In this document: in pieces, positions 1-15,121 of the stretch
Layout: each line of letters starts with the position of its first letter
Numbering within the stretch: position 1 is the first letter of the stretch
Source: Candidatus Oxydemutatoraceae bacterium
Lineage (GTDB): Bacteria > Pseudomonadota > Gammaproteobacteria > Poriferisulfidales > Oxydemutatoraceae
Reading direction: 5' to 3'
DNA length: 64,000 nt
Assembly: GCA_965219575.1 (NCBI GenBank)
Contig: OZ244779.1
Location: 1,800,352 to 1,864,351 of the forward strand
Program-made: the position numbers and the translations under genes
The notes under the pieces: generated by a model
What the model was told of the DNA's origin: nothing
Seen by the model: only the letters and a program-made list of their open reading frames with translations
Database searches by the model: none

Positions 1-284
1 ACCCCCCATAAGAGCACCTTCTAGGAAAACTTTGGCTCGCACCTTTACATTAGTTGTCGACATATCTATTTGTGCATTTGCCGATAGAGAATACACGCTA
101 GCCGTTATAGCTATAACGCTTAAAAACGACATCCTAATAATCCCCCTGACGTTCTCCTTCTTTTTAGTGTCCATATCCAAAGTTAGTTTTCATGCTATTA
201 CTCTCGCAGATATACTAGGAATTGATACTCTAATGCGATAGTTTACCATGCAATGGTTGTCGCACCGGCATATGAACATAGGTT

Positions 285-3200
285 CTACTGGAGCGGACCC
301 TCTAAAAATACTTTGGCGCGTATCCTAATAGCTGAAGCAGTGACATCCACCGACACAGTCTCACTATCGCTTAACCCGCCGCTATCGGTGGCGGTGAAGG
401 TAATCGTTGCTTCTCCTTCTTGCTCGGCACTAATCACAAAGGTTGTAATCGTATCCGTGGTTATATCGGCAGCTTGCACCGGTGTTACCGAAACAATCGT
501 TCGGCTCGACGACATCGCCTCCAATGTAACAATATCGTCCAAATTGAAATTATCATCCGCTACCAAGACAGCGATTTGAGCCGCACTATTGACCGGTAGC
601 GTTTGCGCCGATGACGGTGTAATCATAATCGTCGGTGTAGTATTCGCCTCCACTCGTACTTCAAATTGTGCCGAGACCTCCGAGTTTGCTACACCTCTGT
701 CGTCGTTCACCGTCACCGTAATCACCGCACGACCGGCACCGACACCGCTAACCTCAAGCGTACGGGTGGCATCGTCGGTTGCGATAATCGTTGCGGTTGC
801 AATCATACTATCGCCGGTATTAATTCTTACACTGAGGCTATCGTCGGCATCGGCATCGTTTATCGCAACATCAAACTCGGTACTCAAACCTTCCAACAAC
901 CTAATCGGTTGCTCGGGAATACCGCTCAGCGTCGGTGCCGTATTGACACGCACCACTAGCTCTACACTATCGCTTAACCCACCGCGGTCGGTTGCGGTGA
1001 AGGTAATCGTCGCTTCTCCGCCTTGCTCGGCACTAATCCTAAAGGTTGTAATCGTATCCGTGGTTATATCGGTAACTTGCGCCGGTGTCACCGATATAAT
1101 CGTTTGGCTTGACGACATTGCCGCCAGTGCGACAATATCATTCAAATCGAAATTGCTATCCGTAACCGAGACGATGGTATCGGTCGTGGTATTGACCGGT
1201 AGCGTTTGCGCCGATGACGGTGTAATCATAATCGTCGGTGTAGTGTTCGCTTCGACTTGTACTTCAAACTCTGCCGAGACCTCCGAGTTTGCTACACTTC
1301 TGCCGTCATTTACCGTCACCGTAATCGTTGCTTCGCCCTCACCGACACCGCTAACCTCAAGCGTACGGGTGGCATCGTCGGTTGCGATAATCGTTGCGGT
1401 TGCAATCATGCTATCGCTGGTATCAATTCGTACATTGAGGCTATCGTCGGCATCGGCATCGTTTACCGCAACAGAAAGCTCGGTACTCAAACCTTCCAAC
1501 AACCTGATGGGTTGCTCGGGAATACCGCTCAGCGTCGGTGCCGTGTTGACACGCACCGCTAGTTCTATACTATCGCTTAACCCGCCGATGTCGGTTGCGG
1601 TGAATGTAATCGTCGCTTCTCCGCCTTGCTCGGCACTAATCCTAAAGGTTCTACTCGTATCCGTCGTTATATTAGCAACTTGCACCGGTGTCACCGAAAC
1701 AATCGTTCGGCTTGACGACATTGCCGCTAATGTGACAATATCATTCAAATCGAAATTGCTATCCGTAACCGAGACGATGGTATCGGTCGTGCTATTGACC
1801 GGTAGCGTTTGCGCTGATGACGGTGTAATCATAATCGTCGGTGTAGTATTCGCCTCCACTCGTACTTCAAATTGTGCCGAGACCTCAGAGTTTGCTACAC
1901 CTCTGTCGTCATTCACCGTCACCGTAATCACCGCACGACCGGCACCGACACCGCTAACCTCAAGCGTACGGGTGGCATCGTTGGTTGCGATAATCGTTGC
2001 GCTCGCAATCATGCTATCGCCGGTATCAATTCTTATACTGGGGCTGTCATCGGCATCGGCATCGTTTACCGCAACAGAAAGCTCGGTACTCAAACCTTCC
2101 AACAACCTGATGGGTTGTTCGGGAATACCGCTCAGCGTCGGTGCCGTATTGACACGCACCGCTAGTTCTACACTATCGCTTAACCCGCCGATGTCGGTTG
2201 CGGTGAATGTAATCGTCGCTTCTCCGCCTTGCTCGGCACTAATCCTAAAGGTTCTACTCGTATCCGTCGTTATACCGCCAGTTTGCGTTGATGTCACCGA
2301 AACAATCGTTCGGCTTGACGACATTGCCTCCAGTGTGACGATATCGTCCAGATTGAAATTATCATCCGCCACCGAGACAACGATAGCCGCCGTGCTATTG
2401 ATTGGTAGCGTTTGCGCTGTTGATGGTGTAATCATAATCGTCGGTGTAGTATTCGCTTCCACTTGCACTTCAAATTGTTCCGAGATCCTTGAATTTGCTA
2501 CACCTCTGCCGTCATCCACCGTCACCTTAATCGTTGCCTCACCCTCACCGACACCGACAACCTCAAGTGTGCGGGTGGCATCGTCGGTTGCGATAATCGT
2601 TGCGGTTGCAATCATGCTATCGCTGGTATCAATTCTTACATTGAGGTTATCGTCTGCATCGGCATCGTTTATCGCAACATCAAACTCAGTACTCAAACCT
2701 TCCAATAATCTGATGGGTTGCTCGGGAATACCGCTCAGCGTCGGTGCCGTATTCACACGCACCGCTAGCTCGGCATGAGCACTCAAGCTGTTTCGGTCGG
2801 TTGCGGTGAATCTAATCGTCGCTTCTCCGCCTTGCTCGGCATTCAGCACGAAGCGCACACTCGTATCGGTCGTTATGTCGGCAATGCGCGCCGGCATCAC
2901 CGAGACCACCGATGGGGTTGACGATACCGCCGTCAATGTAACAACATCGTCCAAATCGAAATTGCTGTCCGCAACCGAGACGATGGTATCGGTCGTGCTA
3001 TTGACTGGTAGCGTTAGTGCCGATGACGGTGCAAGCAATAACGTTGGAACGGTATTCTCTTCCACCGTCACATCAAACACCAAAGAAGCCGTTGCATTGG
3101 CTTCGCCGGTGCCGTCATCCACCGTTGCGGTAATCATCGTCTCACCGGCACGCTCTCCGCTAATCGTAAGCATGCGGGTGGTTCCGTCCCCGCTAATCAT

Positions 3201-6200
3201 TGCGCTTGCAATCGTATCGTCGGTGGAGGTGACTTCTACATTCAATGTACTGCCGTCCCTATCGTCCACCGACACCGGCACCATGATTAGCTCTCCCTCC
3301 AACAATGTGATATTGGTGTCTTGGGAGTCATCAACCCTAATCGTCGGTGTCGTGTTTTGTCCCAGCCTCGCACCTAGATTCGACGAGTATACACTCCTCG
3401 TATAGTCTTGCAAGTCGGTATACGCTATCCGCACACGGAACCTGTCGCCTGGGCTTACTTCATGGTCTTGAGGTGCCGATAACGTGGTCGGAACATCGTA
3501 GGAAATCTCAATATCGCCTAAAGTGCCACTCTGCCCGGCAATGTCTTCCCAACCCGAACCGTCACCCTCATCTATCAGACAATTCCTGTTGAGACTTCCT
3601 AGACACTGTTGCCAGTGATAGGTCATAGTTCCGCTCACGCCACCGTCGGTCTCACCCGTCGCATCTATGCCGGTAAAGATTAATATTGTCTCGGTCGTAG
3701 ATCTGGTGAGGTCATTTATCGACACCACGCCATTATCTTCCTTGTTCACCACTATCGCGTACACTCCTGTCGTAGTAGTCGCCCCGTCGCTCACTTCCAC
3801 CACAAAGCTCGCCGTCGCCGTAGTAGCAGTTGCGTCGGTCACAAAGTAGTCGCGAATAGTTAACGGTGCCGTCTCTCCCGACACATCGGCTTCGTCGGCA
3901 TTGATGCTACTCACACGCCAACGATAGCTTAAGTTGTCGAAGTTCTCGTCGGAAGCCTCGGCAGTCATCCTCACCATGCCACCTTCGCTCACCGGTGAAG
4001 GTGCGACATTAACCAGCGTAATCGTCGGTGCAATGTTCGGTACCGTATACACATCGGATTGCGTCGTCACCAATTGTCCGATGTTATCTACAACCGTTGC
4101 CTCCAGCCTATAGCGTGTGCCGGCGGTTCGCGACGGTCTATCGTAGGGGATGCGATATTCATTCTCGGTTGCACCGTCTATCAAAGTGTTGTTAATGAAC
4201 CACCGATAGCTCGTCGACGTAATCCCGTTGGCATCGGCGAGCGTTGAAGTCGTACTCAGCTGCCATCTATCGTCGCTGTCCGGTTCTATGCGTACAGCAC
4301 CGGTCAGCGGGGCATCTACCACTAGTGTGAAGCTCGCCTGCACGCGACCACCTCTGCCGTCATCCGCCGAGACTCTCACGATGGATCCTGCCGCGGTTTG
4401 GCTGGCATCGGCATTGGTTGCCGTGAAGGTCCATACACCGGTCATGGTGCTGAAGTTGCCTATCAAGCCACTCATCGGTTCTATTGCAATATCGTGTGTC
4501 AATGTGTCGCCGTCGGCATCGCTGAAGAAGTCGCTGATATCTCGTTCAAACGGCTCGCCGACCGTTGCGATAATAGCTCGAATCGGCACCCGAGGTGTCG
4601 GTGGAGTATTGACAGCTACCTCCAAAGTACGACTACTGCTTAAATCTGTGCCATCTGTTGCGGTCACTTTGATTTCCGCTATACCCGCTTTGTTCGCTCT
4701 CAGTGCCAAGGTTACACGGGTATCCGACCCGATATCGCCAATCCGCTCCGGCATCACCGATACGATCGTTCGGCTCGACGATGCTGCCGTCAATGTGATA
4801 CGATCGCCGAAGCTAAAATTACCATCCGATACACTAATCACTAGGTGTGCGGTGCTGCCCAGTTGTATCGGCTGTTCAGGTGTGGCAACAATCTCAAGTG
4901 CCGGGGCCACGGTGCCCCCCACCTGCACCGTAAATTGTGCCGAGACCTCCGAGTTCGCTACACCTCTGCCGTCGTTCACCGTCACGGTAATCGTCGTATT
5001 GCCGGCACCGACACCGACAATCTCAAGCGTGCGGACATTACCGGTGGTTGCGATAATCGTTGCGGTTGCAATCATGCTGTCGCTACTATCAATTCTTACA
5101 CTGAGACTATCTTCGGCATCGGCATCGTTTATCGCAATATCAAATTCGGTACTCAAACCTTCCAACAACCTGATGGGTTGCTCGGGAATACCGCTCAGCG
5201 TCGGTGCCGTATTGACACGCACTGGTATTTCTACACTATCGCTTAACCCACCGCGGTCGGTTGCGGTAAATGTGATTGTCGCTTCTCCGCTTCGCTCGGC
5301 ACTAATTATAAAGGTTGTAATCGTATCCGTGGTTATATCGGCAACTTGTGTCGGTGTCACCGAAACAATCGTTCGGCTTGACGACATCGCCTCCAGTGCG
5401 ACGATATCGTCCAAATTGAAGTTATCATCCGCCACCGAGACGAATATATGAGCCGTACTATTGATTGGTAGCGTTTGAGCCGATGACTGTGTAATCATAA
5501 TCGTCGGTGTAGTGTTCGCTTCCCGGGGGCTAATCATATAAATAGTAACCTCGCGATCGGCTTCGGTGACCGTGATGACTAATGCGGTGTTTGCATCTAT
5601 AGGAATAGGCTCGCTTCGCCCGTCGCCACCTTGGTTTGCAAAATAATCGGTATCCTCGCCTTGTCTAACTATTTTGATCGTCGCATCGGTATTATAGGCT
5701 TTTAATCGCAGGGTGATGTCACTAGTCCTAAAAGCAAAAAAACTTACAACATAATGGGCGGTTGTAGCCCCGAAAATTGGGGTCAATCTTGCACCGTGTG
5801 TCAATACTTCTAAATCTCTTAGACCTACGCCTTGACCCGACAACAAAATATCGCTATCCGCAGATTTGAGGATCGGATATTGGATGCTAGTACCGAAATC
5901 CCAGTCGCCGGTACTCCAGCCACTATATATCCCGGTTGCCGTTGTCGGTGATTGCAGTTCCACTAGGGTTTGCGTTGAACTGTTTGTGATAGTAGGAGAA
6001 CCAGAAGAAGAACCGACTAAGGTGTTAAAACCCGTCGCATAGCTATTCGTGATGGAACCACTAAAATACCAACCAACTAATCCGCCTACCCTGCGACCCC
6101 CTGATAAAACAGAACCCGTGGCATAGCTGTTCATGATGGAACCAACAGAATTTAAACCGACTAAACCACCTACATTATTATTTGCTTCAACAGAACCCAT

Positions 6201-9200
6201 CGCATAGCTATTCGTGATAGCACCCTGAGAATTATAACCGACTAAACCGCCTACCTCACTACTCCCTGAAACAGAACTCGTCGCATAGCTGTTCGTGATA
6301 GTGCCTCTATTAAAACCGACTAAACCGCCCACACTACTCCCTGAAACAGAACCCGTCGCATAGCTGTTCGTGATAGTACTACCAATATTCTCACCGACTA
6401 AACTACCTACATTAGAACCCCCAATAATGTCTACATTTAGCAAACCAACATTAGCGATTTCAGCATCACTGTTCGTATAACCAAACAAGCCTATGTTCCT
6501 CGTACCACTTCTGTCAATCCTAAGATTAGAAATCGTAAAACCATTGCCTTCAAACCTGCTTCTGAAAGCATTAGAAGAAGAATCCCCAAGCGGCTGCCAA
6601 CCTGCTCTCGTAGTCCATGTAATCCTATTGACTGTTGAGCTATAGCTGTCATCGTCGTTAAAATCTAAATCTCTCATCAATTCATAGCCCATGCATATAT
6701 CATTAGGACAACCCTCGGTGCTTCCCGTCGCCGTCTCGGCGGTTGCCCTATAGCTCGTGCCGTCCAGTTGAAAGCGGATTGCATTTAAGGTTTCTAAATC
6801 GTTGATATCTATCAGCCCGTTGCCATCGGCATCTACGGCGGTACTCGCTTCCATTGGTGCCGTATTGACCCGCACCAATAATTCTACACTATCGCTTAAC
6901 CCGCCGCTGTCGGTGGCGGTGAATGTGATCGTCGCTTCTCCACCTTTCTCGGCACTAATCATAAAGGTCGTACTCGTATTCGTGGTTATATTAGTAACTT
7001 GCACTGGTGTCACCGAAACAATCGTTCGGCTTGACGACATCGCTTCCAATGCAACTATATCGTCCAAATTGAAGTTATCATCCGCCACCGAGACAACGAT
7101 ATGAGCTGTACTATTGACCGATAGCGTTTGAGCCGATGACGGTGTAATCATAATCGCCGGTGCAATGTTCGCTCCTACTTGAGGGCTAACCATATGAATA
7201 CTAATCATATAAATAGTGGTTCCGGCATCGGCTTCGGTGACCGTAATGACTAATGTAGTGTTTGCGTTTATAGGAATAGGCTCGCTTCGCCCATCACTGC
7301 CCTTGTTTTCAAAATAATCGGTATCCTCGCCTTGTTTAACTACCTTAATCACCGCACCAGCATTATAGGCTTTCAATCGAAGGCTGATGTCGCTCGTCCC
7401 GGAAGCAAGAAAACTTATAACATAATGGGTCGTTGTCGCCCCGAAAATCGGGCTCAATCTTGTACCGGATGTCAATACTTCTAAATCTCTTAGACCTACG
7501 CCTTGACTCGACAACAGAATATCGCTATCTGCAAATTTGAGGATTGGATATTGGATACTAGTACCGAAATCCCAGTCATCGGTACTCCAGTTATAGTATA
7601 TATCACTGGAGGTACTGCTCGTGTCGGTCGCTACTTGCAATTGCTGTGTAGTTGCACCCCTACCACCGGAACTTGTCTGTATTCCGCTGGTACTTATATC
7701 CCAGTAGCTGTTTGTGATTGTGCCGTCATTATCACCAACTAAACCGCCTACACGACCACCTCCTGAAACAGAACCCGTCGCATAGCTGTTCATGATGGTG
7801 CCTCCATTATAACCAACTAAACCGCCGACGGAGAAATTACCACTCGCTGAAACAGAACCCGTCGCATAACTGTTCGTGATTATGCCTTGATTTCGACCGA
7901 CTAAACCGCCTACAATGAAATCTCCAGGAACAGAACCCGTTGCATAGCTGTTCATGATGGTGCCGTCATTCCAACCGACTAAACCGCCTGCATTGCCATC
8001 CCCTGGAACAGAACCCGTCGCATAGCTGTTCATGATGGTGCCATTCAAATTATAACCGACTAAACCGCCTGCATTGCCGTCCCCTGAAACAGAACCCGTC
8101 GCATAGCTATTCGTGATGGTACCGTCATTCCAACCGACTAAACCGCCAGCACTCGCACTATCACTCTCTAAAACAAAACTCGCCGCATAGCTGTTCGTGA
8201 TTGTGCCACCACTATTCCGACCGACTAAACCGCCTGCAGTGCGGGTCCCTGAAACAGAACCCGTCGCATAGCTGTTCGTGATAATACCGTCATTCCAACC
8301 GACTAAACCGCCTACATTGGAAGCACCCATGATATCTACATTTAACAAACCAACATTAGCAATTTCGGCACTACCTCCCGTAGAACCGAACAAACCTATG
8401 TTGCTTGTGCCACTTCTGTCAATCATAAGATTAGAAATCGTGAAACCGTTGCCTTCAAACTGACCGCTGAAAGCATTAGAGAGAGAATTCCCAATCGGCT
8501 GCCAACCGGCTCCCGTAGTCCATATAATTCTGTTGGCTATTGAACTATAGCTGCCATCTTCGTTAAAGTCTAAATCTCTCGTCAATTCATAGCCTCTGCA
8601 TCCGTTATTAGGGCAACCCATCGAAACCTTAGGCACCGTCTCACTCTCTCTATAGCCCGTCCCGTCCAGTTGATAACGCATCGCATTCAGTCTCTCTAAG
8701 TTATCAACCTCTATCAAACCATCGTCATCCCTATCGACATCTCCGTTAAACTCATAATAATTAAGGTAGAGAGTATAAGTAATAGTCTGTGTTGTTTCAC
8801 CACCATTCTCAACCTCAATGGTGATTGTAGTTATCCCGTCTGTGTTTAACGAAATCATACCACTTTCATCACCACTAGCTATGGCTGGACTTCTAGTTTC
8901 TTCATCAGCCGTAATATAAACCTTGGCACCGGGATTTAATGTTATCGGTCTGAATTGTATTGTGCTGGCACTACTAACTACCGTCCCTCTGTAGTTCGGC
9001 ACTACCACATCAAAATCAGGCGACAGATTACCCTCCACTAATTGCAATTCACTCAAACCATATCTAAGTGCAGGCGACAACAAGCTACCGCAGACAGGTA
9101 AATCTGTTGTAGTATCGCCCACACGACGACATTCGCTAATATCTGTGTTAGGATTATCCGTATATTTGAGCACCGGGTATTGGACGCTAGTGCCGAAATC

Positions 9201-10178
9201 CCAGTCATCGGTACTCCAGTTATAGTATATCTCGGCAGAGGTGCTGCCCGGACCAGTTGCTGCTTGCAGTTCTACCGTGGTTTGACTCGTGCCACCGGCA
9301 CTTGTCTCTATTCCACTGCTATTTATATCCCAATAGCTGTTTGTAGTAGTTCCGAAATTACGACCAACTAAACCGCCTACATTATCACCGCTCCCTGAAA
9401 CAGAACTCGTTGCATAGCTGTTCGTGATGATGCCACCATTCTCGCCGACTAAACCGCCTACACCGAAATCTCCTGAAACAGAACCCGTCGCATAGCTGTT
9501 CGTGATGATGCCACCATTCTCGCCGACTAAACCGCCTACACCGAAATCTCCTGAAACAGAACCCGTCGCATAGCTGTTCGTGATGGTGCCTCTATTCTCA
9601 CCGACTAAACCGCCTACACTATTATTTCCTGAAACAGAACCCGTCGCATAGCTGTTCGTGATGGTGCCTCTATTCTCACCAACTAAACCACCTATCTGAT
9701 TTCTCCCTTCAACAGAACCCGTCGCATAGCTGTTCGTGATGGTGCCTCTATTCTCACCGACTAAACCGCCTACCCTATCGCTAAAACCTCCTATTATATT
9801 TACATTTAATAAACCCAGATTAGCAATTTCAGCACTACTTCCCGTATGACCAAACAAGCCTATTTCACTCGTGTCACTTCTGTCAATCCTAAGATTAGAA
9901 ATCGTAAAAACGTTGCCTTCAAACTTGCCTCTGAAAGCATTAGAAGAATCCCCAATCGGCTGCCAACCTGCTCCCGTAGTCCATGTAATCCTATTAGCTA
10001 TAGAACCATAACTGCCAGCGTCGTTAAAGTCTAAATCTCTCGTCAGTTCATAGCCTCTGCATCCGTCATTAGGGCAACCTGTCACAACTTTAGGTGCCGC
10101 CTCGCTCTCTCTATAGCCCGTCCCGTCCGGTTGATAACGTATCGCATTCAGTCCCTCTAAATCATCAATCTCTATCAA
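285..10178 (-). CDS. Giant repetitive surface/adhesin protein, 3' (C-terminal) portion. It was cut off from its 5' portion by an IS insertion. It contains dockerin-like Ca-binding segments, GLUG-type GGLVG Gly-rich repeats, cadherin-like beta-sandwich domains and about 12 tandem Ig-like domains. This fragment has no signal peptide of its own.
   Basis: 3297-aa ORF. It has repeated DxDGNGLIDINDLExLNAIRYQxDG segments and many VGGLVGxNxGTITNSYATGSVSG units. LSPALRYGL...TYTLYL domains match the cadherin-like beta-sandwich pattern. A ~202-aa module at the C-terminus is repeated five times nearly identically. The upstream frame continues without interruption into the IS target duplication at 10219-10226. 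Confidence 0.85.
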   Translation of the reverse strand: MIEIDDLEGLNAIRYQPDGTGYRESEAAPKVVTGCPNDGCRGYELTRDLDFNDAGSYGSIANRITWTTGAGWQPIGDSSNAFRGKFEGNVFTISNLRIDRSDTSEIGLFGHTGSSAEIANLGLLNVNIIGGFSDRVGGLVGENRGTITNSYATGSVEGRNQIGGLVGENRGTITNSYATGSVSGNNSVGGLVGENRGTITNSYATGSVSGDFGVGGLVGENGGIITNSYATGSVSGDFGVGGLVGENGGIITNSYATSSVSGSGDNVGGLVGRNFGTTTNSYWDINSSGIETSAGGTSQTTVELQAATGPGSTSAEIYYNWSTDDWDFGTSVQYPVLKYTDNPNTDISECRRVGDTTTDLPVCGSLLSPALRYGLSELQLVEGNLSPDFDVVVPNYRGTVVSSASTIQFRPITLNPGAKVYITADEETRSPAIASGDESGMISLNTDGITTITIEVENGGETTQTITYTLYLNYYEFNGDVDRDDDGLIEVDNLERLNAMRYQLDGTGYRESETVPKVSMGCPNNGCRGYELTRDLDFNEDGSYSSIANRIIWTTGAGWQPIGNSLSNAFSGQFEGNGFTISNLMIDRSGTSNIGLFGSTGGSAEIANVGLLNVDIMGASNVGGLVGWNDGIITNSYATGSVSGTRTAGGLVGRNSGGTITNSYAASFVLESDSASAGGLVGWNDGTITNSYATGSVSGDGNAGGLVGYNLNGTIMNSYATGSVPGDGNAGGLVGWNDGTIMNSYATGSVPGDFIVGGLVGRNQGIITNSYATGSVSASGNFSVGGLVGYNGGTIMNSYATGSVSGGGRVGGLVGDNDGTITNSYWDISTSGIQTSSGGRGATTQQLQVATDTSSTSSDIYYNWSTDDWDFGTSIQYPILKFADSDILLSSQGVGLRDLEVLTSGTRLSPIFGATTTHYVISFLASGTSDISLRLKAYNAGAVIKVVKQGEDTDYFENKGSDGRSEPIPINANTTLVITVTEADAGTTIYMISIHMVSPQVGANIAPAIMITPSSAQTLSVNSTAHIVVSVADDNFNLDDIVALEAMSSSRTIVSVTPVQVTNITTNTSTTFMISAEKGGEATITFTATDSGGLSDSVELLVRVNTAPMEASTAVDADGNGLIDINDLETLNAIRFQLDGTSYRATAETATGSTEGCPNDICMGYELMRDLDFNDDDSYSSTVNRITWTTRAGWQPLGDSSSNAFRSRFEGNGFTISNLRIDRSGTRNIGLFGYTNSDAEIANVGLLNVDIIGGSNVGSLVGENIGSTITNSYATGSVSGSSVGGLVGFNRGTITNSYATSSVSGSSEVGGLVGYNSQGAITNSYAMGSVEANNNVGGLVGLNSVGSIMNSYATGSVLSGGRRVGGLVGWYFSGSITNSYATGFNTLVGSSSGSPTITNSSTQTLVELQSPTTATGIYSGWSTGDWDFGTSIQYPILKSADSDILLSGQGVGLRDLEVLTHGARLTPIFGATTAHYVVSFFAFRTSDITLRLKAYNTDATIKIVRQGEDTDYFANQGGDGRSEPIPIDANTALVITVTEADREVTIYMISPREANTTPTIMITQSSAQTLPINSTAHIFVSVADDNFNLDDIVALEAMSSSRTIVSVTPTQVADITTDTITTFIISAERSGEATITFTATDRGGLSDSVEIPVRVNTAPTLSGIPEQPIRLLEGLSTEFDIAINDADAEDSLSVRIDSSDSMIATATIIATTGNVRTLEIVGVGAGNTTITVTVNDGRGVANSEVSAQFTVQVGGTVAPALEIVATPEQPIQLGSTAHLVISVSDGNFSFGDRITLTAASSSRTIVSVMPERIGDIGSDTRVTLALRANKAGIAEIKVTATDGTDLSSSRTLEVAVNTPPTPRVPIRAIIATVGEPFERDISDFFSDADGDTLTHDIAIEPMSGLIGNFSTMTGVWTFTATNADASQTAAGSIVRVSADDGRGGRVQASFTLVVDAPLTGAVRIEPDSDDRWQLSTTSTLADANGITSTSYRWFINNTLIDGATENEYRIPYDRPSRTAGTRYRLEATVVDNIGQLVTTQSDVYTVPNIAPTITLVNVAPSPVSEGGMVRMTAEASDENFDNLSYRWRVSSINADEADVSGETAPLTIRDYFVTDATATTATASFVVEVSDGATTTTGVYAIVVNKEDNGVVSINDLTRSTTETILIFTGIDATGETDGGVSGTMTYHWQQCLGSLNRNCLIDEGDGSGWEDIAGQSGTLGDIEISYDVPTTLSAPQDHEVSPGDRFRVRIAYTDLQDYTRSVYSSNLGARLGQNTTPTIRVDDSQDTNITLLEGELIMVPVSVDDRDGSTLNVEVTSTDDTIASAMISGDGTTRMLTISGERAGETMITATVDDGTGEANATASLVFDVTVEENTVPTLLLAPSSALTLPVNSTTDTIVSVADSNFDLDDVVTLTAVSSTPSVVSVMPARIADITTDTSVRFVLNAEQGGEATIRFTATDRNSLSAHAELAVRVNTAPTLSGIPEQPIRLLEGLSTEFDVAINDADADDNLNVRIDTSDSMIATATIIATDDATRTLEVVGVGEGEATIKVTVDDGRGVANSRISEQFEVQVEANTTPTIMITPSTAQTLPINSTAAIVVSVADDNFNLDDIVTLEAMSSSRTIVSVTSTQTGGITTDTSRTFRISAEQGGEATITFTATDIGGLSDSVELAVRVNTAPTLSGIPEQPIRLLEGLSTELSVAVNDADADDSPSIRIDTGDSMIASATIIATNDATRTLEVSGVGAGRAVITVTVNDDRGVANSEVSAQFEVRVEANTTPTIMITPSSAQTLPVNSTTDTIVSVTDSNFDLNDIVTLAAMSSSRTIVSVTPVQVANITTDTSRTFRISAEQGGEATITFTATDIGGLSDSIELAVRVNTAPTLSGIPEQPIRLLEGLSTELSVAVNDADADDSLNVRIDTSDSMIATATIIATDDATRTLEVSGVGEGEATITVTVNDGRSVANSEVSAEFEVQVEANTTPTIMITPSSAQTLPVNTTTDTIVSVTDSNFDLNDIVALAAMSSSQTIISVTPAQVTDITTDTITTFRISAEQGGEATITFTATDRGGLSDSVELVVRVNTAPTLSGIPEQPIRLLEGLSTEFDVAINDADADDSLSVRINTGDSMIATATIIATDDATRTLEVSGVGAGRAVITVTVNDDRGVANSEVSAQFEVRVEANTTPTIMITPSSAQTLPVNSAAQIAVLVADDNFNLDDIVTLEAMSSSRTIVSVTPVQAADITTDTITTFVISAEQEGEATITFTATDSGGLSDSETVSVDVTASAIRIRAKVFLEGPLQ
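290..3400. repeat. Near-identical tandem DNA repeats, period about 606 bp and about 5 copies, inside the giant adhesin gene. More diverged copies continue to about 5500.
   Basis: Antisense ORFs at 666-959, 1257-1562 and 1872-2165 are near-identical and spaced about 606 bp apart. The protein shows 5 copies of a 202-aa unit. Confidence 0.8.
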
Positions 10179-10226
10179 ACCATCATCATCCCTATCAACA
10201 TCACCGTTAAACTCATAATAATTAAG

Positions 10227-10979
10227 GGTACTTGACTAGTTTAGGGACAAAATCCCACTCAAATATCCCTTACCATCTTCATTAGCATATCATACTTTTG
10301 GGAGGCTGAAAGGTGCCTGTGATTGAATCGCCACTCGCATTCTTTTAGATGAAGATGGAAATGTTTTCTCGACACGCCGCAGAACTTTGTTAATCTCCTT
10401 TTTGCCCATCCCCAAAAGTTTTCAATGCCATTGATATGTCTAGTACCACTGCCCAGTGTCTTTGAATGATTGATGCGGTAGTGTTTGTATCCATTCAACA
10501 CCAACCCGCCATAAGCTCTCCATTTGTCTGTGTATATAGTACTCTGATGTCCCACTAAACGCTTGATAATAGGTCGTATCCCGCTCTTTGAAGCATTTCG
10601 TATCACCTGCGTATAGACCTTCCCATCTCTTTTTAATATGCCGAATACCGGTACTTTGTTCGGTGCACCTCTACCTCTTTTGTCTCCCTTTTTGCGACCA
10701 CCGAAGTAGGACTCATCCAACTCTACCTCGCCGGAGAATACGCTCGTCTTCTCGCAGTGTTGTGCAATTCTTTCTCGGATTATATTGACATATCTATTCA
10801 CTGTATTTCTATTGACCCCGGCTGCTTGTGCGATTTGGGTTGCACTCAAATCAAGGGCAAAATACCTTACAATTTGCCTTATTTTCCTGTTTGAAATATG
10901 TGCCCCTCTAAAATGCCTGTTAGGTGTTGTCATTACTAGTTATTTTATCAAATCGTACTCCCTAAACTAGTCAAGTACC
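10227..10979 (-). mobile_element. IS1595-family insertion sequence, 753 bp. It has perfect 21-bp terminal inverted repeats GGTACTTGACTAGTTTAGGGA. An 8-bp target-site duplication TAATTAAG lies at 10219-10226 and 10980-10987.
   Basis: The inverted repeats were read directly at 10227-10247 and 10959-10979. The flanking 8-mer is identical on both sides. The single internal ORF is an IS1595-type transposase. Confidence 0.9.
10259..10933 (-). CDS. IS1595-family (ISXO2-like) transposase
   Basis: 224-aa protein with an N-terminal HTH region (ATQIAQAAGVNRNTVNRY). It carries the characteristic YTDKWRAYGGL and INGIENFWGWAKRRL motifs of IS1595 transposases. Confidence 0.85.
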   Translation of the reverse strand: MTTPNRHFRGAHISNRKIRQIVRYFALDLSATQIAQAAGVNRNTVNRYVNIIRERIAQHCEKTSVFSGEVELDESYFGGRKKGDKRGRGAPNKVPVFGILKRDGKVYTQVIRNASKSGIRPIIKRLVGHQSTIYTDKWRAYGGLVLNGYKHYRINHSKTLGSGTRHINGIENFWGWAKRRLTKFCGVSRKHFHLHLKECEWRFNHRHLSASQKYDMLMKMVRDI

Positions 10980-13264
10980 TAATTAAGATACAAAGTATAA
11001 ATAACAATCTGTGTTGTTTCACCACCATTCTCAACCTCAATGGTGATTGCAGTTATCCCGTCGGTGTTTAACGAAATCATACTACTCTCATCACCACTAT
11101 CTATAGCTATACCTCTAGCTTCTTCATCAGCCCTAATATAAACCTTGGCATCGGGATTTACTGTTATTGGTCTGAACCGGATTGTGCTTGTACTATGAAC
11201 TACCGTTCCTCTGTAGCTCGGCAATATCACATCAAAATCAGGCAATAAATCGCCTTCCACTAATTGCAATTCACCCAAACCATACCTCAGTGCAGGCGAC
11301 AACAAACTACCACAGACAGGTAAATCTGTTGCAGTATCACTTACACTACGACATTCGCTAATATCCGTGTTAGGATTATCCGTATATTTGAGCACCGGGT
11401 ACTGGCTATCAGTGCCGAAATCCCAATTCGTGTTACTCCATTCGTAATAGGGTTTGCCGGGGTCTGTGCCTTGTGCACTTTCTGCTTTCAATTCCACCGT
11501 GGTTTTACTCGTGCCACCGTCACTTATCTTTATTCCGCTGGTATTTATATCCCAGTAGCTACTCGTGATAGTACCATCATTATTCCGACCGATTAAACCG
11601 CCTACACCATTACTCCCTTCAACAGAACCCGTCGCATAGCTGTTTGCGATGGCACCACTAAAATAATTCTGACCGACTAAACCGCCTGCATTGCCGTCCC
11701 CTGAAACAGAACCCATCGCATAGCTGTTCGTGATGGTACCGCCGTTCTCACCGACTAAACCGCCTACATTAAAACGATCCCCAATAACAGAACCCGTCGC
11801 ATAGCTGTTCGTGATATTGCCGCCCCTATTACCACCGACCAAACCGCCTACATAGTCATCTCCTGAAACAAAACCCGTCGCATAGCTGTTCGTGATATTG
11901 CCGGCACTATTATCACCGACTAAACCGCCTACACGACCACTCCCTGAAACAGAACTCGTCGCATAGCTGTTCACGATGGTGCCGCCGTTCTCACCGACTA
12001 AACCGCCGAAACCGAAGATATCGAAGAAACCGCGAAGATCACTACTCCCTGAAACAGAACCTGTCGCATAGCTGTTTGTGATGGTGGCACCAAAACGATT
12101 CCGGCCGACTAAACCGCCAAAACCGGCTAAACGACCGAAACCGCCGAAATCGAAGAAATCGCGAAGATCACCACTCCCTGAAACAGAACCCGTCGCATAG
12201 CTGTTCACGATGGTGCCGCCGTTCTCACCGACTAAACCGCCGAAACCGACTAAACCGCCGAAACCGACTAAACCGCCGAAATCGCGAAGATTACCACTCC
12301 CTGAAACAGAACCCGTCGCATAGCTGTTCGTGATAGTGCCACCGTCATTCCTACCGACTAAACCGCCGAAACCGACTAAACCGCCGAAATCGAAGAAATC
12401 GCGAAGATTACCACTCCCTGAAACAGAACCCGTCGCATAGCTGTTCGTGATAGTGCCACCGTCATTCCTACCGACTAAACCGCCTACACTGCTACTCCCT
12501 AAAACAGAACCCGCCGCATAGCTGTTCGTGATTGTGCCACCGTCATTCCTACCGACTAAACCGCCTACACTGCTACTCCCTAAAACAGAACCCGTCGCAT
12601 AGCTGTTCGTGATTGTGCCGCCATTCTCACCGACTAAACCGCCTACCCCATTGCTAAAACCTCCGATTATATTTACATTTAGTAAGCCCAAATTAGCGAT
12701 TTCAGCACCACCGTCCGTACGACCAAACAAGCCTATTTGACCTGTGCCACCTCTGGCAATCGTAAGATTAGAAATCGTAAAATCGTTGCCTTCAAACCAA
12801 CCGCTGAAAGCATTAGAAAAGTCCCCGATCGGCTGCCAACCTGCTCCCGTAGTCCATATAACCTTGTTAGCTGTTGAACTATAGCTGTCATCGTCGTTAA
12901 AATCTAAGTTTCTTTTCAATTCATAGCCTCTGCAGATATCATTAGGGCAGCCTTCAGTAATCCCCGTCGCCCCGGCGGTTGCTTTATAGCTGGTGCCGTC
13001 CGGTTGAAAGCGGATTGCATTTAAGGTTTCCAAATCGTTGATATCTATCAGCCCGTTGCCATCGGCATCTACGACGGTATTAGTTTGAGCAACTATGTTC
13101 GTGCTGAATAGTGCGAGTAGAATAATCAACAAGAGGGTTTTCATGGAAATTATATATATTGTAAATACTGGGATTGTACAGCCAATATGCACACATGGGA
13201 CTGTTGAAAAAGTACCGCTCTGCACGAATTCAACCGCTTTTCGCCACATAATTATCCAACCCAC
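10979..13264 (-). CDS. Giant adhesin, 5' (N-terminal) portion. It has a Sec signal peptide, a dockerin-like segment, GLUG-type repeats and a cadherin-like beta-sandwich domain. It is terminated by a stop codon created at the IS junction.
   Basis: The N-terminus MKTLLLIILLALFSTNIVAQT looks like a signal peptide. Its architecture matches the modules of the 285-10178 fragment. The stop codon TAG spans the target duplication and the first base of the IS inverted repeat. Confidence 0.85.
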   Translation of the reverse strand: MGWIIMWRKAVEFVQSGTFSTVPCVHIGCTIPVFTIYIISMKTLLLIILLALFSTNIVAQTNTVVDADGNGLIDINDLETLNAIRFQPDGTSYKATAGATGITEGCPNDICRGYELKRNLDFNDDDSYSSTANKVIWTTGAGWQPIGDFSNAFSGWFEGNDFTISNLTIARGGTGQIGLFGRTDGGAEIANLGLLNVNIIGGFSNGVGGLVGENGGTITNSYATGSVLGSSSVGGLVGRNDGGTITNSYAAGSVLGSSSVGGLVGRNDGGTITNSYATGSVSGSGNLRDFFDFGGLVGFGGLVGRNDGGTITNSYATGSVSGSGNLRDFGGLVGFGGLVGFGGLVGENGGTIVNSYATGSVSGSGDLRDFFDFGGFGRLAGFGGLVGRNRFGATITNSYATGSVSGSSDLRGFFDIFGFGGLVGENGGTIVNSYATSSVSGSGRVGGLVGDNSAGNITNSYATGFVSGDDYVGGLVGGNRGGNITNSYATGSVIGDRFNVGGLVGENGGTITNSYAMGSVSGDGNAGGLVGQNYFSGAIANSYATGSVEGSNGVGGLIGRNNDGTITSSYWDINTSGIKISDGGTSKTTVELKAESAQGTDPGKPYYEWSNTNWDFGTDSQYPVLKYTDNPNTDISECRSVSDTATDLPVCGSLLSPALRYGLGELQLVEGDLLPDFDVILPSYRGTVVHSTSTIRFRPITVNPDAKVYIRADEEARGIAIDSGDESSMISLNTDGITAITIEVENGGETTQIVIYTLYLN
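12229..12282. repeat. In-frame 18-bp microsatellite, unit accgactaaaccgccgaa, three copies here encoding (GGLVGF)n. Shorter tracts of one or two copies lie nearby.
   Basis: Direct tandem copies are seen in the DNA. The protein reads DFGGLVGFGGLVGFGGLVGENGG. Confidence 0.75.
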
Positions 13265-13849: not shown

Positions 13850-15121
13850 ATGAAGACTTTTGACAATGCAACCTGTCCGTTTTGTGCTTTGACATGCGAT
13901 GACTTAAGCGTTAAAAGCAACAACGGTAAACTCATCGTAGACGAAGACTTGCCGACATTTTGCCGTGCGAGCTATGAAAACGCATCTCAAATCTCTACGA
14001 CCAAACCTCGCTATAAAGGCAAAGAGATTACGCAAACCGAGGCTGTTGCCGAGGCGAGTAAAATGCTCAAACAAGCTAAACGCCCTTTGTTCGGCGGGCT
14101 GATTACCGACATACAAACGATGCGTGCGTTGGTGCCTCTGGCTAGGCAGTGCAATGCAACCTTAGATCACTTAGACAGCGATAAAACTTTACGCAATCTT
14201 AGAATAATGCATGGTTTCGGCATCGTCGGTGCCACACTCTCGGAAATACATCGCCGTGCCGATTTGCTTATCTTTGTAGGCAGTCGTTTATTCGACGATT
14301 ATCCACGATTACTTCAAAGAGTTTATAAGAATAAAACTCAAAAAAAATCGGTTTTAATCGGTCCTTGGCAACGCGAGAACATACCGGATATTTTGAAGGC
14401 GGATTGCGATATCGTGAATACCCCACCCGAAGCATTCCCCGATGTGATACAAAAGCTCGGGATGTATATCGATAGACAATTCGAGCAACACGAGCAACAC
14501 TCGAAAGCCGAGCCTCAAAACGATAAAGACGACGGCACGCTCTATGCAAAACTCGCAGCCGATATAGAACGCGCCGAGTATCCGGCTTTTGTTTGGTCGG
14601 CCAAAGATATGGATTACTCGCATGCCGATCTAGGCATCCTGCTACTCGCCCGAGTAATCAAAAAAATAAACTTAAGAAAACGTTGCGTCAGCTTGGTATT
14701 GAGCGGTAATCGCGGTGCGGGTAACACGCAGAGCGTTTGTTTATGGCAGAGCGGTTATCCCGGGTGTCTATCGTTTAATTCGGAACAGGCATACTACAAC
14801 CCGCTACATAACCGCACGCCCGAAATACTAAAAAACCGCCGTGCCGATCTACTCGTTTGGATTGCTTCCATCCATCCCGAACCGCCGCCGCCGAGTGACT
14901 TGCCGACGATCGTTTTTGCACATCCTAAGATTGCCGAAGGATTAACAAACGATTTAGTCGTGCCGTGCGGTGTCCCCGGCGTAGACCATACCGGCTATAG
15001 TTATCGCACCGACGGTGTTATAATACTGCCGCTACGCAAACTGCGAGACAGCGCACTTCCGGCATTGCACGAAATGCTACAAGACATACAACTTCAACTG
15101 GGTCAACAAAATGATGATTAA
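13850..15121 (+). CDS. fhcB: Formyltransferase/hydrolase complex subunit B (homolog of formylmethanofuran dehydrogenase subunit B)
   Basis: N-terminal CPFCALTCDDL and WQSGYPGCLSFN...YYNP match the FwdB/FhcB family. Confidence 0.85.
   Translation: MKTFDNATCPFCALTCDDLSVKSNNGKLIVDEDLPTFCRASYENASQISTTKPRYKGKEITQTEAVAEASKMLKQAKRPLFGGLITDIQTMRALVPLARQCNATLDHLDSDKTLRNLRIMHGFGIVGATLSEIHRRADLLIFVGSRLFDDYPRLLQRVYKNKTQKKSVLIGPWQRENIPDILKADCDIVNTPPEAFPDVIQKLGMYIDRQFEQHEQHSKAEPQNDKDDGTLYAKLAADIERAEYPAFVWSAKDMDYSHADLGILLLARVIKKINLRKRCVSLVLSGNRGAGNTQSVCLWQSGYPGCLSFNSEQAYYNPLHNRTPEILKNRRADLLVWIASIHPEPPPPSDLPTIVFAHPKIAEGLTNDLVVPCGVPGVDHTGYSYRTDGVIILPLRKLRDSALPALHEMLQDIQLQLGQQNDD

What the first reader, a model, noticed from the sequence alone, without database searches (positions are those of the whole stretch)
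285..13264. Modular giant adhesin mixing dockerin-like Ca sites, GLUG-type repeats, cadherin-like beta-sandwiches and Ig-like arrays
The reconstructed protein has four super-modules of about 700 aa each. Each has a DxDGNGLIDINDLExLN dockerin/EF-hand-like segment, a Cys-containing GCPNDxCRGYEL segment, 8-12 GGLVGxNxGTITNSYATGSVSG repeats and a SYWDI...YYNWS...WDFG segment. Each super-module ends in a cadherin-like beta-sandwich domain. About 12 Ig/cadherin-like ~100-aa domains follow. It has an N-terminal Sec signal rather than a recognisable RTX/T1SS C-terminus. This looks like a very large surface adhesin or S-layer-associated protein of a methylotroph. The function and export route are not obvious.
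Basis: partly seen in the sequence, partly recalled or inferred. Interest (0 to 1): 0.5.

Follow-up and report, generated by a model that had tools for sequence, protein, structure and literature searches.

The report
IS-split giant surface protein, tagged tail
This is a roughly 4,000-residue surface-adhesin-like gene of a sponge-symbiont bacterium that a small mobile element has cut in two; the adhesin is ordinary for such symbionts, but it ends in a 15-residue tail shared by dozens of unrelated secreted proteins of this lineage, which may be an undescribed sorting or docking signal.

Summary
It holds three minus-strand ORFs. A 753-bp IS1595-family insertion sequence (window 10227-10979) has perfect 21-bp inverted repeats and an 8-bp target duplication. 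It splits a 4,032-aa reading frame, and removing it restores one ORF exactly.

The protein has:
- a Sec-type signal peptide;
- four modules, each an EF-hand-like loop, a CxxxxC cap, a GLUG right-handed beta-helix and a cadherin-like beta-sandwich. The modules are 701, 491, 533 and 442 aa long, with 12, 6, 8 and 5 GLUG turns;
- 18 Ig-like domains.

Pfam supports GLUG, Cadherin-like, Big_2 and Big_9, but not dockerin. An AlphaFold model (pLDDT 94.7) matches the beta-helix of IgA1 proteases, but no protease domain is present.

The host is a Candidatus Porisulfidus sponge symbiont. Its genomes carry tandem arrays of 3,000-7,000-aa paralogues.

The unexpected result is the last 15 residues, G-I-R-x-R-x-K-V-F-L-E-G-P-L-Q-COOH. 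This tail ends 62 protein clusters with different architectures, always at the extreme C-terminus. No Pfam or NCBIfam model or searched paper matches it. It is probably a sorting or docking tag, but its function is inferred only.

The parts
285..13144 (-). Reconstructed CDS of the giant protein (4,032 aa), obtained by removing the IS (10227-10979) and one copy of the target duplication
   Evidence: joining 13144->10980 to 10218->285 gives 12,099 nt with a single stop at the end. The restored junction YTLYLN|YYEFNGDVDRDDDGLIE matches the module 2/3 junction.
13085..13144 (-). Sec-type signal peptide MKTLLLIILLALFSTNIVAQ (aa 1-20)
   Evidence: Read from the sequence. Full-length relatives have equivalent N-termini ending ..GVSAQ. 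No signal-peptide predictor was available.
10982..13084 (-). Module 1 (aa 21-721): EF-hand-like loop, CxxxxC cap, about 12 GLUG turns, SYWDI..WDFG cap and a cadherin-like sandwich. As the sequence stands, it ends at a stop created at the IS boundary (10979-10981).
   Evidence: Pfam Glug gives 9 stretches, E=1e-50.
10980..10987 (.). Target-site duplication, copy 1 (TAATTAAG on + / CTTAATTA on -)
10227..10979 (-). 753-bp IS1595-family insertion sequence with perfect 21-bp terminal inverted repeats (10227-10247 and 10959-10979)
   Evidence: Identical 753-bp copies with 8-bp duplications sit at unrelated sites in the same sample (L048, L049).
10259..10933 (-). Transposase gene, 224 aa
   Evidence: Pfam DDE_Tnp_IS1595 E=2.3e-34. 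Its 90%-identity cluster has 39 members, several of them in the same 2.37-Mb genome.
10219..10226 (.). Target-site duplication, copy 2
8748..10218 (-). Module 2 (aa 722-1212), 6 GLUG turns plus a cadherin-like sandwich. It lacks a signal peptide as the sequence stands.
   Evidence: AlphaFold model of aa 724-1212: pLDDT 94.7, pTM 0.90, a beta-helix plus a beta-sandwich. Foldseek's best matches are IgA1 proteases 7uvk, 7uvl and 6xja. PF12733 scores 27.1 bits.
7149..8747 (-). Module 3 (aa 1213-1745), 8 GLUG turns plus a second type of cadherin-like sandwich
   Evidence: PF12733 scores 24.7 bits. The sandwich is 77% identical to that of module 4 but only 24-32% identical to those of modules 1 and 2.
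6840..7148 (-). Single A-type Ig-like domain between modules 3 and 4 (aa 1746-1848)
   Evidence: It is 78-84% identical to five of the six other A-type copies and 57% to the sixth (aa 3113).
5523..6839 (-). Module 4 (aa about 1849-2287), 5 GLUG turns, a degenerate C-cap (no SYWDI) and a cadherin-like sandwich
345..5522 (-). Stalk of 17 Ig-like domains (aa 2288-4013). It has alternating A-type (Big_9-like) and B-type (Big_2) units, including four 201-aa B+A units. The central stretch at aa 2590-3010 holds one Big_9 domain (C-type) and three domains with no significant Pfam match.
   Evidence: AlphaFold of the last B+A pair gives two Ig-like domains at pLDDT about 90. The fold matches are generic tandem Ig folds of adhesins and S-layer proteins.
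288..332 (-). C-terminal tag AIRIRAKVFLEGPLQ (aa 4018-4032). The stop codon is at 285-287.
   Evidence: The same tail ends 25 of the 120 best homologues and 62 of 64 profile hits among 1.84 billion representatives. In all 62 the match ends at the last or next-to-last residue. The AlphaFold model leaves it unpacked, with pLDDT falling from 61 to 47.
32409..35240 (+). Second tag-bearing gene in the window: 943 aa, a signal peptide, five Cadherin-like domains, no GLUG, ending ILRIKLFLEGALQ
   Evidence: (PF12733 E=5e-67)
1..174 (-). 5' end of the downstream gene, which runs off the window. It encodes a 1,368-aa secreted protein with FGE-sulfatase domains. A tag-like segment, VKVRAKVFLEGAL, sits directly after its signal peptide (window 10-48).

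Best explanation
The region holds a gene for a 4,032-aa, Sec-exported, multi-headed fibrillar surface protein of a Candidatus Porisulfidus-like sponge symbiont. A recent insertion of an active 753-bp IS1595-family element has split it.

Shown:
- Removing the IS and one 8-bp duplicate restores a single ORF.
- The protein has a signal peptide, four [EF-hand-like loop, CxxxxC cap, GLUG right-handed beta-helix, cadherin-like sandwich] modules and 18 Ig-like domains.
- It ends in a 15-residue basic amphipathic tail, G-I-R-x-R-x-K-V-F-L-E-G-P-L-Q-COOH. Many secreted proteins of this lineage with other architectures share this tail.
- The gene belongs to a family of tandemly arrayed 3,000-7,000-aa paralogues. 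In the fetched loci alone these occupy at least 3-5% of each related chromosome.

Inferred:
- The intact protein crosses the inner membrane through Sec.
- It is held at or passed across the outer membrane by a lineage-specific step that reads the C-terminal tag.
- It projects the calcium-stabilised Ig-like stalk outward, with the four beta-helix/cadherin-like heads at the distal N-terminal end. These heads bind sponge matrix or other cells.
- In this genome, the upstream piece (signal peptide plus module 1, without a tag) can still be made. The downstream 3,297-aa piece has no signal peptide and is most likely non-functional.
For: IS and split gene:
- There are three ORFs with an IS1595 transposase between the two halves.
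- The IS has perfect 21-bp inverted repeats and an 8-bp duplication, and the frame is restored exactly.
- The same insertion is present in an independent ENA contig that is 99.96% identical.
- Other 753-bp copies lie elsewhere in the same sample.
- A 77%-identical paralogue or orthologue in OZ244052.1 is continuous across the junction.

Architecture:
- Pfam Glug, Cadherin-like, Big_2 and Big_9 all hit.
- AlphaFold models score pLDDT 94.7 and 86.4.
- The module model matches the IgA1 protease beta-helix and the C-terminal model matches tandem Ig folds.
- The protein is highly acidic, with no RTX, HExxH or LPxTG.

Lineage and family:
- All close genomic relatives are Candidatus Porisulfidus MAGs.
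- Giant paralogues sit in tandem and end in the tag.
- Porisulfidus is described as a sponge symbiont (PMC12988363), and cadherin-domain genes are reported as enriched in sponge MAGs (PMC8163846).

Tag:
- Synonymous codon variation with non-conserved downstream DNA shows selection on the peptide, not on the DNA.
- The tag is preceded by linker-like residues and is not packed in the model.
Against: - Adhesion is inferred from domain types only. No ligand, localisation or expression data exist.
- The signal peptide was judged by eye.
- No secretion or sorting gene lies next to this gene or next to the paralogues examined, so nothing links the tag to a machine.
- The low confidence of the tag in the model may only reflect a shallow 13-sequence alignment.
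- An IS-free allele may coexist in the population. Neither assembly seen has one, but no reads were examined.
- The downstream fragment might still be expressed from its in-frame TTG. This was not tested.
Confidence: 0.7

Rival explanations
1. The locus is one intact, functional 4,000-aa gene. On this reading the apparent break is an assembly or reading artefact.
For: The two halves join perfectly in frame once the insert is removed.
Against: The insert is a complete IS with a transposase (E=2e-34), perfect inverted repeats and an 8-bp target duplication. It appears in two assemblies. Identical copies lie at other loci. A stop codon forms at the IS boundary.
Confidence: 0.03
2. The protein is a cellulosome-like or S-layer-type scaffold. 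Its N-terminal D-x-D-G-N-G-L-I-D loops would be dockerins that plug into cohesin-like partners.
For: Each module begins with a canonical 12-residue calcium-loop pattern followed by a helix. Fold matches of the Ig pair include the S-layer proteins SbsB and SbsC. One distant homologue carries a precomputed PF00404 hit (P0120).
Against: - There is no Dockerin_1 hit even at E<=1, and EF-hand_1 reaches only E=0.12.
- There is one loop per module, not the duplicated pair that defines type I dockerins.
- The loop is continuous with the N-cap of the beta-helix in the high-confidence (pLDDT 94.7) module model.
- No cohesin-like gene was seen.
- The S-layer matches are generic Ig folds.
Confidence: 0.08
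3. The GLUG beta-helix modules are catalytic or substrate-clamping units, as in IgA1 proteases or beta-helix polysaccharide lyases. The protein would then be a tethered enzyme acting on sponge matrix rather than an adhesin.
For: The best structural matches are IgA1 proteases, and NCBIfam gives a weak ZmpA match. The gene next door encodes secreted FGE-sulfatase-fold domains. Sponge MAGs are enriched in matrix-degrading enzymes (PMC8163846).
Against: There is no HExxH and no M26 catalytic domain. The match covers only the non-catalytic beta-helix at 20% identity. No glycoside hydrolase or lyase family hit appears in any module.
Confidence: 0.1
4. The C-terminal tail is not a sorting or docking signal. 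It would be only a conserved structural cap or a remnant inherited from a common ancestral 3' exon-like cassette, with no role in localisation.
For: No partner gene was found. The tag is confined to one lineage, so shared descent or cassette shuffling could spread it.
Against: - It follows at least four unrelated domain types: A-type Ig, cadherin-like, the beta-helix C-cap and regions with no Pfam match.
- It lies outside the Pfam domain envelope and after linker-like residues.
- It is nearly invariant across 68 distinct tails while the flanks and synonymous sites vary.
- Complete tag-bearing proteins have signal peptides.
Confidence: 0.2
5. The protein is a type I secretion (RTX/LapA-like) adhesin.
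For: It is giant, acidic and repetitive, and has a conserved extreme C-terminus.
Against: It has an N-terminal signal peptide. There are no RTX nonapeptides and no HemolysinCabind or T1SS target-domain hit. No ABC, MFP or TolC genes are adjacent.
Confidence: 0.03

Closest known systems
GLUG motif-containing / cadherin-like beta sandwich domain-containing proteins (Pfam PF07581 + PF12733), as NCBI names relatives such as MBC6414695.1
   Same: The repeat is the same 26-28-residue GGLVG..N.G.I.NSYATG.V.G unit, forming a right-handed beta-helix with a SYWD...WDF cap, followed by a PF12733 sandwich. Thousands of homologues exist (7,913 scored hits).
   Different: - Here four complete helix-sandwich modules are concatenated in one polypeptide, and one related locus (L004) has 10 EF-hand-like loop motifs.
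- A long Ig-like stalk is added.
- The protein ends in a lineage-specific 15-residue tag.
- This copy is split by an IS.
N-terminal beta-helix domain of streptococcal and Gemella IgA1 metalloproteases (M26; PDB 7uvk, 7uvl, 6xja)
   Same: It is the best structural match to the module model: 366 aligned columns, E=2e-4, 20% identity. Both carry GLUG repeats.
   Different: There is no HExxH metalloprotease domain and no LPxTG or G5. The host is Gram-negative. The helix is reiterated four times.
Fibrillar adhesins of bacteria (stalk of Ig-like repeats plus distal binding domains; for example SraP and invasin/intimin)
   Same: It has tandem Ig-like stalk domains (fold matches), distal putative binding modules, extreme acidity, calcium-type loops, and rapid repeat expansion and mosaicism.
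   Different: There is no known anchor or export module. It has no autotransporter or intimin barrel, no TPS domain, no T9SS C-terminal domain and no sortase or exosortase signal. It has only the short tag.
Short C-terminal protein-sorting tags (PEP-CTERM, GlyGly-CTERM, LPXTG, T9SS C-terminal domain)
   Same: The logic is the same. One conserved C-terminal element is shared by many otherwise unrelated Sec-exported surface proteins of one lineage.
   Different: There is no transmembrane helix or basic cluster after the motif. The protein ends at ...EGPLQ. The tag is far shorter than a T9SS C-terminal domain. No cognate sortase-like gene was identified. One tag-like copy sits at a mature N-terminus.
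IS1595 family insertion sequences
   Same: It has a DDE_Tnp_IS1595 transposase (E=2e-34), terminal inverted repeats, an 8-bp target duplication and a single ORF.
   Different: At 753 bp it lies at the small end of the family. From memory it is similar in size to the IS1016 group. It was not compared with ISfinder.

Membership tests
Pfam Glug (PF07581) beta-helix proteins | Multiple matches to the GLUG repeat profile above the gathering score | tested here: met
   167 bits (9 stretches) and 243.8 bits (16 stretches) against a cut-off of 20.5
Pfam Glug (PF07581) beta-helix proteins | The repeats fold as a right-handed beta-helix | tested here: met
   The AlphaFold model (pLDDT 94.7) has three short strands per roughly 26-residue turn. 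The top fold matches are IgA1 protease beta-helices. This is a prediction, not an experiment.
Cadherin-like beta sandwich (PF12733) | A profile match at or above the gathering score (24.2 bits) | tested here: met
   The sandwiches of modules 2 and 3 score 27.1 and 24.7 bits when scanned alone. Module 1 scores 20.8 bits in the whole-protein scan. The model shows a beta-sandwich.
Type I dockerin (PF00404) | A profile match, with two tandem ~22-residue calcium-binding segments | tested here: not met
   There is no hit at E<=1 on the module 1 cap or at E<=0.01 on the whole proteins. Each module has only one loop.
EF-hand calcium loop | A 12-residue loop with D/N/E at positions 1, 3, 5, 9 and 12, G at 6 and I/V/L at 8, followed by a helix | tested here: inconclusive
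   All four loops fit the pattern (DADGNGLIDIND, DRDDDGLIEIDD, DRDDDGLIEVDN), and a helix follows in the model. However, Pfam EF-hand_1 gives only 12.4 bits, E=0.12. Metal binding was not testable.
Bacterial Ig-like domains Big_2 / Big_9 | A profile match at or above the gathering score, and an Ig-like fold | tested here: met
   B-type scores Big_2 25.8 against 22.8. C-type scores Big_9 24.8 against 23.6. A-type scores Big_9 22.8, just below 23.6. The model shows two Ig-like domains. The other three central domains (aa 2691-3010) have no significant Pfam match.
RTX / type I secreted adhesins | GGxGxDxUx nonapeptide repeats, a C-terminal T1SS signal domain and no Sec signal peptide | tested here: not met
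   There are no nonapeptides and no HemolysinCabind or T1SS hits. A Sec-like N-terminus is present.
M26 IgA1-specific metalloproteases | An HExxH zinc-protease domain (Peptidase_M26_C) | tested here: not met
   There is no HExxH and no M26_C hit. Only the beta-helix part is shared.
Known C-terminal sorting systems (T9SS C-terminal domain, PEP-CTERM, GlyGly-CTERM, LPXTG, autotransporter barrel) | A matching C-terminal domain or motif, with a transmembrane helix where applicable | tested here: not met
   No Pfam or NCBIfam hit covers the last 299 aa at E<=1 apart from weak, unrelated matches. The tail ends ...IRIRAKVFLEGPLQ with no hydrophobic span.
IS1595 family | A DDE_Tnp_IS1595 transposase, terminal inverted repeats and an 8-bp target duplication | tested here: met
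   E=2.3e-34. The 21-bp inverted repeats are perfect and the duplication is TAATTAAG. Two further copies have 8-bp duplications, one perfect and one matching at 7 of 8 positions.

The most novel reading that the evidence does not exclude
The 15-residue tail G-I-R-[IVL]-R-[AVI]-K-V-F-L-E-G-P-L-Q-COOH is the signature of a previously undescribed sorting or docking system. It has no transmembrane segment and appears specific to Porisulfidus-type sponge symbionts. Such a system would export or anchor a whole set of giant adhesin-like proteins, up to more than 6,000 aa, in a Gram-negative cell that shows none of the usual export modules on these proteins. The mechanism might be beta-strand addition to an outer-membrane or surface partner.
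Probability: 0.35. Interest if true: 0.7.

Novelty: new variant of a known kind. Interest (0 to 1): 0.5.

Why it matters
The adhesin-like body is what one expects in a sponge symbiont. Cadherin-type attachment genes are known to be enriched there, and this copy is broken by an IS, so on its own it is an annotation correction.

Two things could matter more.

1. This symbiont lineage spends several per cent of a roughly 2.2-2.9 Mb chromosome on tandem arrays of 3,000-7,000-aa multi-head proteins. These recombine module by module and are being hit by an active IS. That is a picture of fast-evolving host-interface genes.

2. All of these proteins, plus cadherin-only and Ig-only secreted proteins, share one short C-terminal tail. 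No searched library or paper describes it. How Gram-negative symbionts with few recognisable secretion systems place giant proteins on their surface is an open question. A shared tag gives it a concrete handle. The predicted tryptic peptide VFLEGPLQ could be sought in sponge metaproteomes. The tag could also be used to define the surface proteome and to search for its receptor.

Tried and rejected
- **Exact look-up of the 3,297-aa ORF:** not on record.
- **JGI metagenome scan** for K-V-F-L-E-G-x-L-Q-stop: 24 hits, all in short chance ORFs, so the tag is absent from that collection at this stringency.
- **NCBIfam at E<=1** on the tag-bearing tails: no CTERM-type model.
- **Full-text search** for the tag strings: no papers. 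'GLUG' plus 'beta-helix': no papers.
- **A secretion or sorting partner** next to the gene, elsewhere in the window, or next to paralogues: only housekeeping genes, an incidental lptD-surA pair, a HlyD-type gene at one locus and a prepilin-like gene at another. Nothing recurs.
- **Truncated C-terminus:** I first suspected the stop at 285 came from truncation, because the next gene begins with a similar peptide. I rejected this once every complete paralogue and 62 clusters proved to end the same way.
- **DNA-level explanation of the tag** (a conserved 3' element): rejected. Synonymous sites vary and the downstream DNA is not conserved.
- **Dockerin:** rejected.
- **Synteny of the closest genomic relative (L003):** no match of 500 bp or longer lies upstream of the gene start, so orthology versus paralogy is unresolved.
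- **Homologue search with the last 218 aa:** only 7 short fragments returned. The word-indexed search returned no protein longer than about 1,250 aa.
- **tRNA and Rfam scans of the window:** nothing found.

Full report
**What is at the coordinates.** The features lie on the minus strand. The region is not one ORF but three: 10979-13264 (761 aa), 10259-10933 (224 aa) and 285-10178 (3,297 aa). The middle ORF is an IS1595-family transposase (Pfam DDE_Tnp_IS1595, E=2.3e-34). It sits in a 753-bp element (window 10227-10979) with perfect 21-bp terminal inverted repeats (GGTACTTGACTAGTTTAGGGA). The element is flanked by an 8-bp direct duplication, TAATTAAG, at 10219-10226 and 10980-10987.

Removing the element and one duplicate gives a single 12,099-nt ORF of 4,032 aa. 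The restored junction, YTLYLN|YYEFNGDVDRDDDGLIE, matches the natural junction between modules 2 and 3. The insertion is real for three reasons:
- An ENA metagenome contig (ERZ25072152 ctg44525) is 99.96% identical over 5 kb and carries the same insertion.
- Identical 753-bp copies with their own 8-bp duplications lie at unrelated sites in the same sample.
- The transposase cluster has several variants in the same 2.37-Mb chromosome.

As the sequence stands, translation from the signal peptide stops at a codon formed at the IS boundary, after module 1. The remaining 3,297 aa have no signal peptide.

**Anatomy of the restored protein.** The likely start is the ATG at 13144 (MKTLLLIILLALFSTNIVAQ), which reads as a Sec signal peptide. 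The GTG at 13264 only adds 40 non-signal residues. Four modules start at aa 26, 730, 1217 and 1851. Each module has, in order:
- a 12-residue loop fitting the EF-hand pattern (DADGNGLIDIND or DRDDDGLIE[IV]D[DN]), followed by a helix;
- a GCPN[DN]xC[RM]GYEL segment (CxxxxC);
- non-GLUG cap turns;
- about 12, 6, 8 and 5 GLUG turns in modules 1 to 4;
- a SYWDI...WS...WDFG cap (SYWDI is missing in module 4);
- a cadherin-like sandwich.

One A-type Ig-like domain sits between modules 3 and 4. Seventeen Ig-like domains follow module 4. They include four 201-aa B+A units and a divergent central stretch (aa 2590-3010).

Pfam gives:
- Glug at E=1e-50 and 3.5e-75;
- Cadherin-like at 27.1 and 24.7 bits (cut-off 24.2) for isolated sandwiches;
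- Big_2 for B-type domains;
- Big_9 for the C-type domain, and borderline for A-type;
- no significant match for the other three central domains (aa 2691-3010);
- no dockerin hit, and EF-hand_1 only at E=0.12.

The protein has no HExxH, RTX nonapeptide or LPxTG, and its net charge is about -277. The module relationships are mosaic. The N-caps pair as modules 1 with 4 and 2 with 3. The sandwiches pair as 1 with 2 (81% identity) and 3 with 4 (77%), with only 24-32% identity across the two pairs. This points to recombination among modules.

**Structure.** An AlphaFold2 model of module 2 (aa 724-1212, 74-sequence alignment) has mean pLDDT 94.7 and pTM 0.90. It shows a strand-helix start, a right-handed beta-helix and a C-terminal beta-sandwich. 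Foldseek against the PDB puts IgA1 proteases first (7uvk E=2e-4 over 366 columns, then 7uvl and 6xja). The match is to their GLUG beta-helix, and the catalytic domain is absent here. A model of the last 218 aa gives two confident Ig-like domains. The final 17 residues are left without secondary structure, and pLDDT falls from 61 to 47. Its fold matches are generic tandem Ig domains of adhesins and S-layer proteins.

**Organism and family.** Neighbouring genes include a formylmethanofuran-tetrahydromethanopterin formyltransferase (FTR), an Fhc-type amidohydrolase and a GXGXG protein. The rest of the window is housekeeping plus restriction-modification-type genes.

A scan of one genome per species found close relatives of the junction region in three 'uncultured candidatus Porisulfidus sp.' chromosomes, plus one weak partial match in a Bacteroidales MAG. 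That genus is described as a sponge symbiont (PMC12988363) and was used as the outgroup of SUP05 (PMC9123188).

Those chromosomes carry many paralogues of 3,000 to about 7,000 aa, several in head-to-tail arrays. In the fetched stretches alone they cover 3.1-4.8% of each chromosome. The closest one (L003, 77% identity) is continuous across the site where the IS sits here. Its upstream flank is not syntenic, so orthology is unresolved. Single-module relatives of about 1,000 aa have the same layout: signal peptide, loop, helix, sandwich, tail.

Cadherin-domain genes are reported as enriched in sponge-associated MAGs, which encode few complete secretion systems (PMC8163846).

**The C-terminal tag.** I first suspected truncation, because the protein stops at ...SAIRIRAKVFLEGPLQ and the next gene begins (after its signal peptide) with ...NVKVRAKVFLEGALMGG. 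That idea was wrong:
- Every complete Porisulfidus paralogue ends in ..[IV]RV[FL][LP]EGLLR or a close variant.
- 25 of the 120 best homologues end in ..KVFLEG[PLS]LQ.
- A second gene in this window (32409-35240) also ends this way. It encodes 943 aa with five Cadherin-like domains and no GLUG, ending ..ILRIKLFLEGALQ.

A 30-column profile of the tails, searched against 1.84 billion representatives, found 64 proteins at E<=0.001. Of these, 62 carry the tag, and in all 62 the match ends at the last or next-to-last residue. Protein lengths range from 30 to 6,168 aa.

The logo from 68 distinct tails is G-I-R-[IVL]-R-[AVI]-K-V-F-L-E-G-P-L-Q, with F, L and the penultimate L invariant.

Carriers include a 25-repeat cadherin-like array, Big_2/Big_9 proteins and proteins with no Pfam match. 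The tag lies outside the last Pfam domain envelope and usually follows linker-like residues. Complete carriers have signal-peptide-like N-termini.

The ten carriers whose sources were looked up come from Porisulfidus-type chromosomes, from shorter ENA contigs of unknown taxon, and from one NCBI MAG labelled Chromatiales. That MAG's protein is annotated only as a cadherin-like domain protein.

Codons vary freely at synonymous sites and the downstream DNA is not conserved, so the peptide is what is selected. NCBIfam has no model for it. The searched literature has no mention of it. A JGI metagenome scan returned only chance matches. No recurrent neighbouring gene was found.

**Interpretation.**

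Shown:
- the gene is split by an IS;
- the domain composition and predicted folds;
- membership of a greatly expanded, recombining, lineage-specific family;
- a shared extreme-C-terminal peptide under purifying selection.

Inferred:
- The intact protein is a Sec-exported fibrillar surface protein. Its Ig-like stalk is proximal to the C-terminal tag, and its four helix-sandwich heads are distal and bind host matrix or other cells.
- The tag is a basic, alternating (beta-strand-like) peptide at the end of a very acidic protein. It acts as a sorting or docking element.
- The single N-terminal occurrence, in the neighbouring FGE-sulfatase-domain protein, hints that a free carboxylate may not be required. 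That favours docking by strand addition over recognition by a C-terminal protease or PDZ domain. It is one case and should not be over-read.

**Verdict.** Its adhesin reading is reasonable but untested. The body of the protein is a new variant of a known kind, and in this genome it is probably a pseudogene. The tag is the part worth following up.

Noticed in passing
window 32409-35240 (+): A 943-aa secreted protein with five Cadherin-like (PF12733) domains and no GLUG. It ends in the same C-terminal tag (ILRIKLFLEGALQ). It lies in a low-GC stretch next to a DNA methylase gene.
   Followed up: partly
window 1-174 (-), continued in L002 12152-13563: The downstream gene encodes a 1,368-aa secreted protein with two FGE-sulfatase-fold domains (PvdO/GldK-like at family level) and Ig-like repeats. 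A tag-like VKVRAKVFLEGAL sits directly after its signal peptide. This is the only N-terminal occurrence seen.
   Followed up: partly
window 13850-18453 (+): A cluster divergent from the giant gene: a 423-aa ORF with no Pfam hit, an amidohydrolase, formylmethanofuran-H4MPT formyltransferase (FTR) and a GXGXG protein. It looks like an fhc-type tetrahydromethanopterin C1 module in a sponge symbiont related to sulfur oxidisers.
   Followed up: no
window 30851-31936, 35352-36515, 40130-41407, 47052-48290: An N6/N4 DNA methylase, a GmrSD-type restriction endonuclease and two AAA_14/DUF4143 ATPases. GC falls to 0.41-0.44 across about 30-44 kb. This fits the defence-gene enrichment reported for sponge symbionts.
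   Followed up: no
window 21380-23485 (+): A 701-aa ORF whose only Pfam hit is an RNA polymerase alpha C-terminal domain segment (aa 222-260). Nothing else in it was recognised.
   Followed up: no
window 589-2778, 4228-5451 (+) and others; L003 11425-20916 (-): Long ORFs (up to 729 aa here and 1,864 aa in L003) run antisense to the repeat arrays. They are almost certainly artefacts of the repetitive, skewed composition, not genes.
   Followed up: no
L005, L007, L010, L016 (OZ244052.1 352-428 kb); L009, L012, L019; L006, L013, L018: Giant GLUG genes sit head to tail in arrays of up to about 75 kb. In the fetched loci alone they make up 3.1-4.8% of each Porisulfidus chromosome.
   Followed up: partly
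L046 just after 5527 and 13069; L009 just after 18472: Some family genes are followed by a shared GC-rich hairpin-like sequence (aattcccctcct[gt]tggaggggtg). It may be a terminator or a small repeat element. It is absent after the window's gene.
   Followed up: no
L001/L002 versus window 7260-12322: The low-coverage ENA contig of the same strain differs at 2 of 5,064 bases. Its gene calls break the 3,297-aa frame into pieces of 472, 1,168 and 1,723 aa. These breaks are probably sequencing errors in that assembly.
   Followed up: partly
L049 1965-3838: Another copy of the same 753-bp IS, with a perfect 8-bp duplication (TAAAGTTA), lies between two unannotated ORFs of 173 and 206 aa. It may be a second interrupted gene.
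   Followed up: no
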